A DNA stretch of 4,439 nt. Source: a virus. Lineage: Duplodnaviria > Heunggongvirae > Uroviricota > Caudoviricetes. Positions within the stretch are counted from its first letter, which is position 1. Each line of letters begins with the position of its first letter. This document shows, piece by piece, positions 1 to 4,439 of this stretch. Where the stretch lies: the IMG/VR virus record IMGVR_UViG_3300023290_000107. The stretch is one strand, 5' to 3'. Below the pieces are notes generated by a model. That model had not been told where the DNA came from. It ran no database searches and was given only the letters and a program-made list of their open reading frames with translations. The translations under genes were made by a program, and so were the position numbers.

Positions 1-1796
1 AGCTGCCGACGCTGCGCCAGCGCCTGTTCCGCTGCGTGAGTATCCGTGAGAACGATGACGGCACGTATGCCATCACCGCCGTGCAGCATGTACCGGAGAA
101 AGAAGCCATCGTGGATAACGGGGCGCACTTTGACGGTGACCAGAGCGGCACGGTGAATGGTGTCACGCCGCCAGCAGTGCAGCACCTGACCGCCGAAGTC
201 ACTGCAGACAGCGGGGAATATCAGGTGCTGGCGCGATGGGACACACCGAAGGTGGTGAAGGGCGTGAGCTTCCTGCTCCGTCTGACCGTAACAGCGGACG
301 ACGGCAGTGAGCGACTGGTCAGCACGGCCCGGACGACGGAAACCACATACCGCTTCACGCAACTGGCGCTGGGGAACTACAGGCTGACAGTCCGGGCGGT
401 AAATGCCCGGGGGCAGCAGGGCGATCCGGCGTCGGTATCGTTCCGGATTGCCGCACCGGCAGCGCCGTCGCGGATTGAGCTGACGCCGGGCTATTTTCAG
501 ATAACCGCCACGCCGCATCTTGCGGTTTATGATCCGACGGTACAGTTTGAGTTCTGGTTCTCGGAAAAGCGGATTGCGGATATCAGGCAGGTTGAAACCA
601 CAGCACGCTATCTTGGCACGGCGCTGTACTGGATAGCCGCCAGTATCAATATCAAACCGGGCCATGATTATTATTTTTACGTTCGCAGTGTGAACACCGT
701 TGGCAAATCGGCATTCGTGGAGGCTGTCGGTCGGGCGAGCGATGATGCGGAAGGTTACCTGGATTTTTTCAAAGGAGAAATCGGGAAAACACATCTGGCC
801 CAGGAGTTGTGGACGCAGATTGATAACGGTCAGCTTGCGCCGGACCTGGCTGAAATCAGGACGTCCATTACGAATGTCAGCAATGAAATCACGCAGACCG
901 TCAATAAAAAACTGGAAGACCAGAGTGCGGCAATCCAGCAGATACAGAAAGTTCAGGTTGATACAAATAATAACCTGAACAGCATGTGGGCCGTGAAACT
1001 GCAGCAGATGAAGGACGGACGCCTTTATATTGCGGGTATCGGAGCCGGTATTGAGAATACGCCAGCAGGTATGCAGAGTCAGGTGCTTCTGGCTGCTGAC
1101 CGGATTGCGATGATTAATCCTGCGAATGGCAACACAAAGCCGATGTTTGTTGGTCAGGGCGATCAGATATTCATGAACGACGTGTTCCTGAAACGCCTGA
1201 CGGCTCCGACCATTACCAGCGGCGGTAATCCTCCGGCATTTTCCCTGACACCGGACGGGCGGCTGACGGCGAAAAATGCCGATATCAGCGGTAACGTGAA
1301 TGCGAACTCCGGGACGCTCAACAACGTCACGATTAACGAGAACTGTCGGGTTCTGGGAAAATTGTCCGCCAACCAGATTGAAGGCGATCTCGTTAAAACA
1401 GTGGGCAAAGCTTTCCCCCGGGACTCCCGTGCACCGGAACGGTGGCCATCAGGGACCATCACCGTCAGGGTTTATGACGATCAGCCGTTTGACCGGCAGA
1501 TTGTTATTCCGGCGGTGGCATTCAGCGGCGCTAAACATGAGCGGGAGAATAACGATATTTATTCGTCATGCCGCCTGATAGTACGGAAAAACGGTGCTGA
1601 AATTTATAACCGTACCGCGCTGGATAATACGCTGATTTACAGTGGTGTTATTGATATGCCAGCTGGTCGCGGCCACATGACGCTGGAGTTTTCGGTGTCA
1701 GCATGGCTGGTGAATAACTGGTATCCCACAGCAAGTATCAGCGATTTGCTGGTTGTGGTGATGAAGAAAGCCACCGCAGGCATCAGTATCAGCTGA
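1..1796 (+). CDS. J: Tail-tip host specificity protein J, C-terminal ~597 codons (5'-partial; reading frame begins at nt 3 and is open to the window edge; stop TGA at 1794-1796)
   Basis: Frame 3 is open from nt 3 to 1796 with no stop. The translation ([45 protein letters not shown]...[30 protein letters not shown]...DMPAGRG...) matches, from memory, long stretches of the C-terminal half of phage lambda J (gpJ, central tail fibre), including the fibronectin-III-like region and the C-terminal receptor-binding region. The track ORF 36..1796 is the same frame from an internal GTG. Gene order J-lom-stf is as in lambda. Confidence 0.93.
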
Positions 1797-1863: not shown

Positions 1864-1935
1864 ATGCGTAAAGTTTGTGCAGCCATTTTGTCCGCAGCCA
1901 TCTGTCTGGCCGTATCCGGTGCGCCTGCATGGGCG
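1864..1935 (+). other. Sec signal peptide of Lom (24 codons, predicted signal peptidase I cleavage after AWA)
   Basis: Positively charged n-region (RK), hydrophobic core [12 protein letters not shown], and an A-x-A (AWA) cleavage motif followed by SEQQ. Confidence 0.7.
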
Positions 1936-2463
1936 TCTGAGCAGCAGGCCACACTGAGCGCAGGGTATCTTCATGCCCGTACGAACGCTCCCGGCAGCGA
2001 TAATCTGAACGGGATTAACGTGAAATACCATTATGAGTTTACGGACACGCTGGGGCTGATTACGTCATTCAGTTATGCCAACGCTGAAGATGAGCAAAAA
2101 ACGCATTACAGCGATACCCGCTGGCATGAAGATTCCGTGCGTAACCGCTGGTTCAGCGTGATGGCGGGGCCGTCTGTGCGCGTGAATGAATGGTTCAGCG
2201 CGTATGCGATGGCGGGTGTGGCTTACAGCCGTGTGTCGACTTTCTCCGGGGATTATCTGCAGGTGACCGACAATACGGGGAAAACGCACGATGTGCTGAT
2301 CGGAAGTGATGACGGTCGCCACAGCAACACGTCTCTGGCGTGGGGGGCTGGCGTGCAGTTTAACCCGACCGAATCCGTGACCATTGACCTTGCTTATGAA
2401 GGTTCCGGTAGTGGCGACTGGCGAACGGATGCATTTATTGTTGGTATCGGATACCGTTTCTGA
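1864..2463 (+). CDS. lom: Outer membrane protein Lom (Ail/Lom/OmpX family 8-stranded beta-barrel), 199 aa, prophage-encoded moron
   Basis: Complete ORF ATG 1864 to TGA 2461-2463. N-terminal signal peptide [24 protein letters not shown] with AWA-S cleavage motif. Alternating aromatic/hydrophobic beta-strand pattern and a C-terminal aromatic residue (…IGYRF) typical of outer-membrane beta-barrels. Sequence recognised as lambda Lom; sits between J and stf as in lambda. Confidence 0.93.
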
Positions 2464-2566
2464 CAACAGACGCCGATTTATCTTCTGTAAATATTGTTAT
2501 GATACGCAGGTTCATCCACTTTATGGGGTGAACTGCGTTTGAGGAAACGTAAAGTTACACTGTCCT

Positions 2567-2601
2567 GAAGCCCGTGGCGTCACTGCTGCGGGCTTTTTTT
2601 A
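2567..2601 (+). terminator. Putative rho-independent terminator downstream of lom, immediately upstream of stf
   Basis: Stem AAGCCCG (2568-2574) pairs with CGGGCTT (2589-2595); inner pairs extend to 2577-2578/2585-2586, with a 6-nt loop GTCACT. Followed by a run of seven T (2594-2600). GC-rich stem plus U-tract is canonical intrinsic terminator architecture. Confidence 0.65.
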
Positions 2602-2603
2602 TT

Positions 2604-2609
2604 GGTGGA
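2604..2609 (+). promoter_or_regulatory. Shine-Dalgarno sequence for stf (GGTGGA, 5-nt spacer to ATG at 2615)
   Basis: Purine-rich motif at appropriate distance from the ATG that opens the long frame-2 ORF. Confidence 0.5.
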
Positions 2610-2614
2610 AAAGT

Positions 2615-4439
2615 ATGACAGTAAAAATTTCTGGCGTGCTTAAAGATGGCACAGGAAAACCAGTACAGAACTGCACCATTGTGCTGAAGGCCAGACGAAC
2701 CAGCAGCACGGTGGTGGTGAACACGGTGGCCTCTGAAAATCCGGATGAAGCCGGACGTTACAGCATGGATGTTGAGCATGGTCAGTACAGCGTCACCCTG
2801 CTGGTTGAAGGTTTTCCGCCTTCACATGCCGGGACCATTACCGTCTATGAAGGTTCCAGACCAGGTACGCTGAATGATTTTCTCGGTGCCATGACGGAGG
2901 ATGATGTCCGACCGGAGGCACTGCGCCGCTTTGAGCAGATGGTGGAAGAGGTGTCACGTAACGCCTCCGCGGTTGCACAGAATACGGCAGCCGCGAAAAA
3001 ATCAGCCAGCGATGCCAGTGCATCAGCCAGCGAGGCGGCAACTCATGCAACCGATGCTGCAGCCTCAGCACGTGCCGCCAGCACGTCAGCCGGACAGGCC
3101 GCGTCGTCGGCTCAGTCAGCGTCTTCCAGCGCAGGAACGGCATCGACAAAGGCCCGTGAAGCAGCAAAAAGTGCTGCTGCTGCAGAGTCATCAAAAAGCG
3201 CGGCAGCTACCAGCGCCAGTGCCGCGAAAACGTCAGAAACGAATGCCGCAGCGTCACAACAATCAGCAGCCACTTCTGCATCCACCGCGACCACGAAAGC
3301 GTCAGAAGCAGCCACTTCAGCACGGGATGCGTCGGCTTCAAAAGAGGCGGCAAAATCATCAGAAACGAACGCATCATCAAGCGCCAGTAGTGCCGCTTCC
3401 TCGGCAACGGCGGCAGGAAATTCCGCGAAGGCGGCAAAAACGTCCGAGACGAACGCCAGGTCTTCTGAAACGGCAGCGGGACAGAGCGCCTCGGCTGCGG
3501 CAGGCTCAAAAACAGCGGCTGCATCATCTGCCAGCGCCGCGTCAACAAGTGCCGGGCAGGCCTCAGCCAGTGCCACCGCTGCCGGAAAGTCGGCAGAAAG
3601 TGCCGCATCGTCTGCTTCAACAGCCACAACGAAGGCTGGCGAAGCCACTGAACAGGCCAGCGCAGCAGCGAGGTCTGCTTCCGCAGCGAAGACATCCGAA
3701 ACGAACGCGAAAGCGTCGGAAACCAGCGCAGAATCCTCAAAAACGGCTGCCGCATCGTCCGCCAGTTCGGCGGCGTCATCGGCATCATCTGCGTCTGCTT
3801 CAAAAGATGAGGCGACCAGACAGGCGTCAGCAGCAAAGGGCAGCGCCACGACGGCATCCACGAAGGCGACAGAGGCAGCTGGCAGTGCGACGGCGGCAGC
3901 TCAGAGCAAAAGTACGGCGGAATCCGCGGCAACGCGCGCTGAGACAGCGGCAAAACGGGCAGAGGATATTGCATCCGCCGTGGCGCTTGAGGATGCGAGC
4001 ACGACGAAAAAGGGGATAGTACAGCTCAGCAGTGCGACTAACAGCACTTCCGAGTCACTGGCGGCAACGCCAAAAGCCGTTAAGGCCGCGTATGAGCTGG
4101 CTAACGGGAAATACACCGCACAGGATGCAACGACAGCACAGAAAGGGATAGTTCAGCTTAGCAACGCGACCAACAGCACATCTGAAATGCTGGCGGCAAC
4201 GCCAAAGTCGGTAAAGGCAGCCTATGACCTTGCTAACGGGAAATATACTGCTCAGGACGCTACGACAGCACAAAAAGGAATTGTCCAGCTCAGTAGTGCA
4301 ACCAACAGCACATCTGAAATGCTGGCGGCAACGCCAAAGTCGGTAAAGGCAGCCTATGACCTTGCTAACGGGAAATATACTGCTCAGGACGCTACGACAG
4401 CACAAAAAGGAATTGTCCAGCTCAGTAGTGCAACCAACA
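2615..4439 (+). CDS. stf: Side tail fibre protein Stf, N-terminal 608 codons (3'-partial; ORF runs off the window end with no stop)
   Basis: ATG at 2615; the frame (codon starts = 2 mod 3) was translated by hand and is open to nt 4439. The N-terminus MTVKISGVLKDGTGKPVQNCTIVLKARRTSSTVVVNTVASENPDEAGRYSMDVEHGQYSVTLLVEGFPPSHAGTITVYE... closely resembles the lambda Stf (orf-401) N-terminus as I recall it. It is followed by an Ala/Ser-rich fibrous shaft and KGIVQLSSATNSTSE.LAATPKAVK tail-fibre repeat motifs. Absent from the supplied ORF track, evidently because no stop lies within the window. Confidence 0.92.
   Translation, partial: MTVKISGVLKDGTGKPVQNCTIVLKARRTSSTVVVNTVASENPDEAGRYSMDVEHGQYSVTLLVEGFPPSHAGTITVYEGSRPGTLNDFLGAMTEDDVRPEALRRFEQMVEEVSRNASAVAQNTAAAKKSASDASASASEAATHATDAAASARAASTSAGQAASSAQSASSSAGTASTKAREAAKSAAAAESSKSAAATSASAAKTSETNAAASQQSAATSASTATTKASEAATSARDASASKEAAKSSETNASSSASSAASSATAAGNSAKAAKTSETNARSSETAAGQSASAAAGSKTAAASSASAASTSAGQASASATAAGKSAESAASSASTATTKAGEATEQASAAARSASAAKTSETNAKASETSAESSKTAAASSASSAASSASSASASKDEATRQASAAKGSATTASTKATEAAGSATAAAQSKSTAESAATRAETAAKRAEDIASAVALEDASTTKKGIVQLSSATNSTSESLAATPKAVKAAYELANGKYTAQDATTAQKGIVQLSNATNSTSEMLAATPKSVKAAYDLANGKYTAQDATTAQKGIVQLSSATNSTSEMLAATPKSVKAAYDLANGKYTAQDATTAQKGIVQLSSATN
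2960..4000 (+). repeat. Degenerate 42-bp (14-codon) periodic repeat region encoding the Ala/Ser/Thr-rich shaft of Stf (~24 units)
   Basis: The protein segments cleanly into 14-mers, e.g. KTSETNAAASQQSA / ATSASTATTKASEA / ATSARDASASKEAA / KSSETNASSSASSA / ASSATAAGNSAKAA / KTSETNARSSETAA, with nearly every unit ending in A-A or E-A. The recurring K-[TS]-S-E-T-N-A motif starts at nt 3227, 3353, 3437 and 3689; the spacings 126, 84 and 252 bp are all exact multiples of 42. Confidence 0.8.
4001..4439 (+). repeat. 132-bp tandem direct repeats within stf (about 3.3 copies in window; unit encodes a 44-aa phage tail-fibre repeat)
   Basis: Units begin at the K codons at 4010, 4142, 4274 and 4406 (the last truncated by the window end). 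The encoded unit is KGIVQLS[S/N]ATNSTSE[S/M]LAATPK[A/S]VKAAY[E/D]LANGKYTAQDATTAQ. Nucleotides 4169-4307 are identical to 4301-4439, so the sequence is perfectly 132-periodic from 4169 to the end. Copy 1 (4010-4141) is the most diverged. Confidence 0.9.

What the first reader, a model, noticed from the sequence alone, without database searches (positions are those of the whole stretch)
4001..4439. Near-perfect 132-bp tandem repeats in stf, with a divergence gradient and unknown copy number
The sequence shows at least 3.3 in-frame copies of a 132-bp unit encoding a 44-residue motif (KGIVQLSSATNSTSEMLAATPKSVKAAYDLANGKYTAQDATTAQ). The last ~270 bp (4169-4439) are perfectly periodic, while copy 1 (4010-4141) differs from copy 2 at many positions, almost all synonymous or conservative. 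Such identity suggests recent duplication or ongoing concerted evolution, and the array continues beyond the window. From memory, lambda Stf carries fewer copies of this motif, so this fibre may have an expanded repeat array, which could change fibre length or geometry. Identical tandem copies are also a classic site for short-read assembly collapse or expansion, so the true copy number is uncertain.
Basis: partly seen in the sequence, partly recalled or inferred. Interest (0 to 1): 0.5.

Follow-up and report, generated by a model that had tools for sequence, protein, structure and literature searches.

The report
Copy-variable repeats in prophage tail fibre
This is an ordinary, already catalogued 44-amino-acid repeat in the side tail fibre gene of a lambda-like E. 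coli prophage; its near-identical copies come from one recent 132-base duplication, and closely related strains carry one to five copies.

Summary
Window 4008-4439 holds 3.3 in-frame copies of a 132-bp unit, with perfect period-132 identity from 4169 to the end. The gene is stf, the side tail fibre gene of a lambda-like prophage (J-lom-stf), and the unit is the Pfam repeat PF03406. The array is base-for-base identical to that of E. coli UTI89 and about 90-125 other complete genomes. In those genomes it ends about 17 nt past the window, giving 4 motifs in a 1035-aa fibre with a T4 gp37-like tip. The "divergence gradient" is really a step pattern. Unit 3 is an exact chimera of nt 1-36 of the terminal unit and nt 37-132 of unit 2. 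That is the signature of a single 132-bp tandem duplication at a 9-nt microhomology (ACCAACAGC). Strain SF-166 carries the same prophage with 3 motifs and differs from UTI89 by nothing else over 11 kb. One strain, ST95-32, has 5 motifs, and related fibres have 1-5. Lambda Stf and K-12 StfR each have one. The copy number in the window's own source remains unknown, because the window probably ends at a short-read contig break. This is a known repeat family with mildly interesting in-frame copy-number polymorphism. Its effect on the fibre is untested.

The parts
1..1796 (+). 3' part of gene J (central tail fibre / tail tip protein); context only
   Evidence: Aligns to the annotated gpJ CDS of UTI89, whose end (L001 5397) corresponds to window 1796. 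The ORF ending at 1796 is listed.
1864..2463 (+). lom (Ail/Lom outer-membrane beta-barrel protein); context only
   Evidence: A 199-aa ORF that coincides with the annotated Ail/Lom CDS L001 5465-6064.
2567..2596 (+). Terminator-like hairpin followed by a T-run, 18 nt upstream of the stf start codon
   Evidence: Consensus scan: 13-pair stem, 7 GC pairs, then TTTTATT. Sequence read. Function not tested.
2615..4439 (+). stf (side tail fibre), first 608 codons; the frame stays open to the window end
   Evidence: The start MTVKISG... matches the annotated start of WP_000216497.1. PF08400 covers aa 1-134 at E 5.8e-70. Residues 1-94 match the lambda Stf N-terminal chain 9e7m at E 3.8e-47. Identity to K-12 StfR is 90% and to lambda orf-401 82%.
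3017..4009 (+). Ala/Ser-rich low-complexity shaft (proximal coiled-coil region) upstream of the array
   Evidence: Translation and alignment to lambda Stf. Residues 102-393 of lambda Stf are described as the proximal coiled coil in PMC12617516. The assignment here is by homology.
4010..4141 (+). Repeat unit 1 (PF03406 motif 1), the old diverged copy
   Evidence: Differs from unit 2 at 26 nt and 4 aa. Identical (0 nt differences) to unit 1 of the 3-motif alleles L004 and L005.
4142..4273 (+). Repeat unit 2 (PF03406 motif 2), donor of the tail of the duplicated unit
   Evidence: Identical (0 nt differences) to unit 2 of the 3-motif alleles. Differs from unit 3 at 8 nt, all in unit nt 6-27.
4274..4405 (+). 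Repeat unit 3, the recently created chimeric copy (nt 1-36 of the terminal unit plus nt 37-132 of unit 2)
   Evidence: Unit sequences and difference matrix. Deleting exactly this unit from UTI89 gives 0 mismatches to strain SF-166 over 11,083 nt.
4406..4439 (+). First 34 nt of the terminal unit 4, cut by the window end
   Evidence: In UTI89 this unit continues as KGIVQLSSATNSASETLAATPKAVKAANNNANGRVPSARKVNGK and leaves the repeat. TRF ends the array at L001 8056, which is window 4455.
4169..4309 (+). First copy of the perfect 141-nt direct repeat; the second copy is 4301-4441 and overlaps the first by 9 nt
   Evidence: Longest perfect lag-132 run in UTI89 is 141 positions, window coordinates 4169-4309. 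Within the window the run is 139 positions.
4301..4309 (+). ACCAACAGC, the 9-nt microhomology at the duplication junction (also at 4169-4177 and 4433-4441)
   Evidence: 141 - 132 = 9. The block is bounded by unit-specific bases at unit nt 27 and nt 37.

Best explanation
The region is the start of a four-module array of the phage tail fibre repeat (Pfam PF03406) in the side tail fibre gene stf of a lambda-like E. coli prophage. The array has two old, diverged modules (units 1 and 2) and a terminal module (unit 4). Unit 3 is one extra module made recently by a single in-frame 132-bp tandem duplication. Its junction lies in a 9-nt microhomology (ACCAACAGC) between unit 2 and the terminal unit. 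The cause was replication slippage or unequal exchange. The duplication left a perfect 141-nt direct repeat. Such a repeat is a substrate for further unequal recombination or slippage, and the same prophage is indeed found with 3, 4 or 5 modules. Shown here: the anatomy, the family, the chimeric unit, the allelic series and the position in the protein. Inferred: at the protein level each 44-residue module adds a fixed segment to the trimeric fibre between the Ala/Ser-rich proximal coiled coil and the distal receptor-binding half. In lambda Stf the single module directly abuts the hinge, so copy number would change the length or flexibility of the fibre near its knee without touching the T4 gp37-like tip.
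For: Periodicity and frame. Family: PF03406 at 219 bits against a cut-off of 22, in 4 stretches, together with PF08400 and the Collar domain. The tip is T4 gp37-like (2xgf, E 1.6e-81) and the N-terminus matches lambda Stf (9e7m). The window is 100% identical to UTI89 from 3701 to 4439, where the array is 3.4 units, 4 motifs, in a 1035-aa protein. Single duplication: units 1, 2 and 4 are 0, 0 and 1 nt from the three units of the 3-motif alleles L004 and L005, and unit 3 is an exact head-of-4 plus tail-of-2 chimera. The perfect repeat is 141 nt, which is 132 + 9. Recency and instability: UTI89 minus unit 3 shows 0 mismatches to SF-166 over 11,083 nt spanning J to trpA. ST95-32 has 5 motifs, and its stf is otherwise identical to UTI89's after nt 100. 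It is the only one of 5,426 complete genomes with three or more perfect periods. Recurrence: related alleles show independent expansions to 3, 4 and 5 motifs with adjacent units 0-9 nt apart, always at 132-nt spacing. Position: the lambda motif starts at K361, and the paper places the end of the proximal domain at residue 393 and the hinge at 394-422 (PMC12617516).
Against: Polarity is not proven. A 4-to-3 deletion across the 141-nt repeat would yield exactly the SF-166 allele. The order 3 then 4 rests on parsimony: the two copies are perfectly identical, and the 3-motif form is much more widely distributed (about 1000 records against about 100). The window's own source genome was not found, so its total copy number is inferred from relatives. 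No structure of a PF03406 array exists. My single-sequence AlphaFold2 model was unusable, with mean pLDDT 36. After the last motif this fibre differs from lambda, so the claim that the array sits next to the hinge is by homology only. The functional effect is untested.
Confidence: 0.85

Rival explanations
1. Assembly artefact: the identical copies were produced, or their number distorted, by short-read assembly of a tandem repeat.
For: The window ends inside the perfect repeat. An independent contig (L017) has the same start and ends at the same position in the unit. Many homologues are 'partial' proteins at contig ends.
Against: The array as seen in the window, through unit nt 34 of unit 4, is base-identical to that of many complete genomes. 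Thirty-five or more were listed and 55 more. These include UTI89, APEC O1 and S88, which I know from memory to be older finished genomes. The alleles differ by clean 132-nt indels in otherwise identical DNA.
Confidence: 0.03
2. Ongoing concerted evolution: repeated gene conversion among units keeps them alike, rather than one discrete duplication.
For: In other alleles several adjacent units are 0-9 nt apart. Unit 2 of L008 is a patchwork of two unit types, which looks like conversion.
Against: Units 1 and 2 have stayed 26 nt apart and are unchanged (0 nt differences) between the 3- and 4-motif alleles. Unit 3 is an exact two-piece chimera with one junction. The only difference from the isogenic 3-motif prophage is the 132-bp unit.
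Confidence: 0.08
3. Adaptive tuning locus: module number is selected to adjust fibre reach or hinge geometry to the host surface, such as K1 capsule or O-antigen thickness. The perfect repeat would then act like an in-frame contingency locus.
For: Copy number is polymorphic (3, 4, 5) within one nearly identical prophage. Expansions recur independently in other alleles. The module lies beside the hinge in lambda Stf. All changes are in frame.
Against: There are no phenotype data. Only 1 of 5,426 complete genomes has three or more perfect periods, which argues against a high switching rate. It is unknown whether the prophage is active. Neutral slippage explains the same data.
Confidence: 0.1

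Closest known systems
E. coli UTI89 prophage side tail fibre WP_000216497.1 (also in ATCC 11775 and other complete genomes)
   Same: The window is 98.9% identical overall and 100% identical from 3701 to 4439. The four-motif array and the J-lom-stf-tfa order are the same.
   Different: There are 49 substitutions in three patches: J, lom and the Ala-rich shaft. The window stops 34 nt into unit 4.
Bacteriophage lambda Stf (orf-401/orf-314 of NC_001416; Ur-lambda gpStf)
   Same: It shares the N-terminal collar domain, the Ala/Ser-rich coiled coil, the identical context AKRAEDIASAVALEDA..KGIVQLSSATNSTSETLAATPKAVK, a gp37-like tip and a downstream tfa.
   Different: It has one motif and no 132-bp tandem. 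Its coiled coil is shorter by one 105-aa block. The segment after the motif is different.
E. coli K-12 Rac prophage StfR (WP_000279097.1)
   Same: 90% identity over the part aligned to the window's Stf, including the first motif.
   Different: It has a single motif, no tandem repeat and a different distal part.
Pfam PF03406 (Phage_fiber_2) arrays in other E. coli prophage tail fibres (e.g. P0001-P0013)
   Same: The same 44-aa module with near-identical tandem copies.
   Different: These have up to 8 or more motifs per (often partial) protein, commonly with alternating 44- and 56-aa spacing and different flanking domains.
Phage Mu tail fibre gpS (PDB 5yvq, 8ju3, 9ki1)
   Same: It carries one recognisable copy of the motif, KKGLVQLTSATDSPSETLAATAKAVK, E 2.3e-8.
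   Different: It is a single copy in a myovirus fibre. I could not establish whether the motif is ordered in those structures.
Length-variable modules of EHEC prophage tail fibres (collagen-like and PCoil domains; Ghosh et al. 2012, PMC3368898)
   Same: The same protein class (PfN ... Pf2 ... C-terminal domain). Length varies by whole repeat units, in threes and in sevens.
   Different: There the variable parts are collagen triplets and heptads. Here it is the 44-aa Pf2 module itself.

Membership tests
Pfam PF03406 Phage_fiber_2 (phage tail fibre repeat) | Match to the family HMM above the curated gathering score | tested here: met
   The window segment 4010-4438 scores 211 bits and the full UTI89 protein 219 bits, against a cut-off of 22, with 4 stretches each.
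Pfam PF03406 Phage_fiber_2 (phage tail fibre repeat) | Occurs inside a phage tail fibre protein | tested here: met
   PF08400 N-terminal domain, Collar domain, T4 gp37-like tip and J-lom-stf-tfa gene order.
Lambda-type side tail fibre (Stf) | N-terminal collar domain homologous to lambda gpStf residues 1-94 | tested here: met
   E 3.8e-47 to chain 9e7m_Ta over residues 1-94. PF08400 at E 5.8e-70.
Lambda-type side tail fibre (Stf) | Gene position directly downstream of J and lom, followed by a tail fibre assembly gene | tested here: met
   J, lom and stf are in the window. tfa follows stf in UTI89, SF-166, ST95-32 and lambda. tfa itself lies outside the window.
Lambda-type side tail fibre (Stf) | C-terminal receptor-binding tip of the T4 gp37 type | tested here: met
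   UTI89 residues 788-1035 match 2xgf at E 1.6e-81. This was shown only in the relative, because the window ends before the tip.
Lambda-type side tail fibre (Stf) | Assembles as a trimer on the virion and speeds adsorption | not testable with these tools
   Known for Ur-lambda (PMC12617516). No data exist for this prophage.
Phase-variable contingency locus (repeat-mediated on/off switching) | A change in repeat number shifts the reading frame or promoter spacing | tested here: not met
   The unit is 132 nt, or 44 codons. The 3-, 4- and 5-motif alleles all keep the frame and full-length proteins of 991, 1035 and 1080 aa.
Recent tandem duplication at a microhomology | The new unit is an exact chimera of its neighbours with one junction, and an otherwise identical allele lacks it | tested here: met
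   141 = 132 + 9 nt; 0 mismatches in 11,083 nt after removing the unit.

The most novel reading that the evidence does not exclude
The number of PF03406 modules next to the hinge of lambda-type side tail fibres acts as an evolvable in-frame 'ruler'. Slippage across perfect 132-bp repeats would generate fibres of graded length or flexibility within a single bacterial clone (3, 4 and 5 modules in one prophage of UTI89-like strains). Selection would then match fibre reach to capsule or O-antigen thickness.
Probability: 0.12. Interest if true: 0.5.

Novelty: already known. Interest (0 to 1): 0.18.

Why it matters
The practical value is limited. The result explains why contigs of E. coli prophages break in stf, and it warns that fibre lengths taken from short-read assemblies are unreliable. 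It also gives a clean natural series of the same fibre with 3, 4 or 5 identical modules (1-5 in relatives). That series could be used to test how module number near the hinge affects side-fibre reach and adsorption, and it is relevant to engineering chimeric lambda Stf fibres. It does not reveal a new kind of system.

Tried and rejected
1. Finding the window's own source in order to count units downstream. Exact window-specific 61- and 66-mers were scanned in genome contigs, viral contigs and metagenome contigs. The 54 loci retrieved were all at most about 96-98% identical to the window. The best complete E. coli genome is 98.9% identical. The source was not found.
2. An exact look-up of the UTI89 protein in the cluster collection, to read length variants, returned 'not in collection'.
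3. A single-sequence AlphaFold2 model of window 3950-4438 had mean pLDDT 36 and pTM 0.23. I discarded it and ran no fold search on it.
4. Literature searches for PF03406, for a 132-bp tail fibre repeat, and for the Mu gpS structures found no description of this copy-number polymorphism and no statement on the fold of the module. A 2012 paper says little is known about Pf2.
5. The 'divergence gradient' reading was rejected.
6. The expectation that the array runs far beyond the window was rejected for all close relatives.
7. Searches failed for technical reasons (file layout, wrong frame) and were repeated correctly.

Full report
**Observation**

Tandem Repeats Finder reports one strong array in the window: period 132, positions 4008-4439, 3.3 copies, 88% matches, no indels, score 619. 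Identity at lag 132 is 88.3%. In 300 shuffles of the region the best lag gave a mean of 33.6% and never exceeded 37.6%.

The units are in frame with a long ORF that starts at 2615 and runs off the window. They begin at 4010, 4142, 4274 and 4406. Unit 1 differs from unit 2 at 26 nt in 22 codons, with only four amino-acid changes.

**What the gene is**

The window contains the end of J (to 1796), lom (1864-2463) and the first 608 codons of stf.

- Against complete E. coli genomes, the best matches are UTI89, APEC O1, S88, NU14, ATCC 11775 and similar strains, at 98.9% over the whole window. From memory these are ST95 ExPEC strains; I did not test that.
- The 49 differences from UTI89 fall in three patches: 464-617, 1883-2300 and 3374-3700. 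From 3701 to 4439 the window and UTI89 are identical.
- The UTI89 protein (WP_000216497.1, 1035 aa) has the PF08400 N-terminal domain and four PF03406 'phage tail fibre repeat' stretches (219 bits against a cut-off of 22). It also has a Collar domain.
- Its C-terminus matches the T4 gp37 tip (2xgf, E 1.6e-81), and its first 94 residues match the lambda Stf collar domain (9e7m).

**Where the array ends**

In UTI89 the array spans L001 7609-8056, or 3.4 units. It therefore ends about 17 nt past the window. The protein has four motifs. The fourth reads KGIVQLSSATNSASETLAATPKAVKAANNNANGRV... and leaves the repeat after about 27 residues.

I could not find the window's own source, so its copy number is inferred from relatives.

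The window is probably a whole short-read contig. An independent 4220-nt IMG/VR contig (L017) starts at the same base of J and ends at the same point of the unit, '...KGIVQLSSATN'.

**Origin of the identical copies**

The same fibre backbone occurs in other complete genomes with clean 132-nt length differences. I fetched examples with 1, 2 and 3 motifs.

- In the 3-motif alleles (L004, L005), the three units are 0, 0 and 1 nt from the window's units 1, 2 and 4.
- The window's unit 3 is an exact chimera: nt 1-36 of the terminal unit followed by nt 37-132 of unit 2.
- The perfect direct repeat is 141 nt (window 4169-4309 equals 4301-4441), which is 132 + 9. This places the junction in the 9-nt block ACCAACAGC.

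This is the signature of one tandem duplication at a microhomology. It explains why the pattern is stepwise rather than a gradient.

**How recent and how unstable**

Strain SF-166 carries the same prophage at the same site, next to an ompW remnant, yciE and trpA, with 3 motifs. After removing unit 3 from UTI89, the two sequences show 0 mismatches over 11,083 nt.

- A synthetic 5-unit query found one genome, ST95-32, that matches it 100% in a single piece.
- That genome's stf has 5 motifs and is otherwise identical to UTI89's after nt 100.
- A query of three perfect periods found only that one record among 5,426 genomes, so alleles with 5 or more motifs are rare.

Polarity (3 to 4 rather than 4 to 3) rests on parsimony. 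The 3-motif form is far more widespread: roughly 15 of 60 evenly spaced rows, against 2 for the 4-motif form. The 4-motif allele was listed in at least 90 complete genomes.

**Is four copies unusual?**

No.

- In 48 related IMG/VR and metagenome loci I counted 1 motif in 17, 2 in 19, 3 in 8, 4 in 1 and 5 in 3, always at 132-nt spacing.
- Another allele lineage shows independent expansions whose adjacent units differ by 0-9 nt.
- Other E. coli tail fibre proteins carry up to 8 or more motifs, often as 'partial' proteins on 1-2 kb contigs.
- Lambda Stf and K-12 StfR each have exactly one motif and no tandem repeat.

**How it probably works**

At the DNA level, a perfect 141-nt direct repeat in frame is a substrate for slippage or unequal exchange. 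Each event adds or removes 44 codons without breaking the frame. The 991-, 1035- and 1080-aa alleles show this.

At the protein level the following is inference. The array lies between the Ala/Ser-rich shaft and the distal half of the fibre.

- In Ur-lambda, the paper assigns residues 102-393 to the proximal coiled coil and 394-422 to a hinge (PMC12617516).
- The single lambda motif starts at K361, so it directly abuts the hinge.
- Extra modules would therefore lengthen or loosen the fibre near its knee and leave the receptor-binding tip unchanged.
- I could not test this. My single-sequence AlphaFold2 model had pLDDT 36 and was discarded. A 2012 paper states that little is known about the module (PMC3368898).

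**Verdict**

It is overstated on three points: the array running on, an unusual expansion, and a gradient.

The array is identical to sequences already present in many RefSeq genomes and belongs to a catalogued repeat family. The only mildly new element is the clean 3/4/5 allelic series in one otherwise identical prophage.

Noticed in passing
window 1 and 4439; L017 1 and 4220: The window and an independent IMG/VR contig (IMGVR_UViG_3300023290_000086) start at the same base inside J and both end at '...KGIVQLSSATN' in the repeat. Both look like whole short-read contigs broken at sequences repeated within the array or between prophages. E. coli genomes have a median of 3 places matching this stf segment.
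   Followed up: partly
window 464-617, 1883-2300, 3374-3700: All 49 differences from UTI89 fall in three patches (J, lom, Ala-rich stf shaft). The rest of the window is identical to UTI89. This is the pattern expected from mosaic recombination between prophages.
   Followed up: partly
window about 3536-3850 (Stf aa 308-412): The Ala/Ser-rich shaft of this fibre and of K-12 StfR contains one 105-aa block that lambda Stf lacks. 105 is 15 x 7, which fits the reported tendency of these coiled-coil regions to vary in length by multiples of seven.
   Followed up: partly
window 2464-2614: The lom-stf spacer is 151 nt here and in UTI89, against 64 nt in lambda and many relatives, and its sequence is unrelated. 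It carries a terminator-like hairpin at 2567-2596 just upstream of the stf start.
   Followed up: partly
window 3112-3861 (-), 3207-3974 (-), 4055-4405 (-): Long antisense ORFs (249, 255 and 116 aa) lie over the Ala-rich shaft and the repeats. Lambda has an annotated counterpart, orf206b, in the same place. They are most likely a by-product of GCN-rich codons, not genes.
   Followed up: no
database homologues P0025, P0039, P0051, P0053 and others: Several partial tail fibre repeat proteins are named 'short-chain fatty acid transporter, partial' by their source. This is an evident annotation error that has spread among E. coli draft genomes.
   Followed up: no
L001 9962-11670 (UTI89, downstream of the window): After stf and tfa the prophage ends with a SAM-dependent methyltransferase on the opposite strand, remnants of a second tail fibre assembly gene, and a truncated ompW. 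This suggests integration into ompW.
   Followed up: no
L008 units 1-2; L046; L021, L040 and L050: A second allele lineage (motif '...SESQAATPKAVKAAYDLANGKYTAQDATTGQ') has expanded independently to 3, 4 and 5 motifs. Unit 2 of L008 is a patchwork of two unit types, which suggests gene conversion between units or between prophages.
   Followed up: partly
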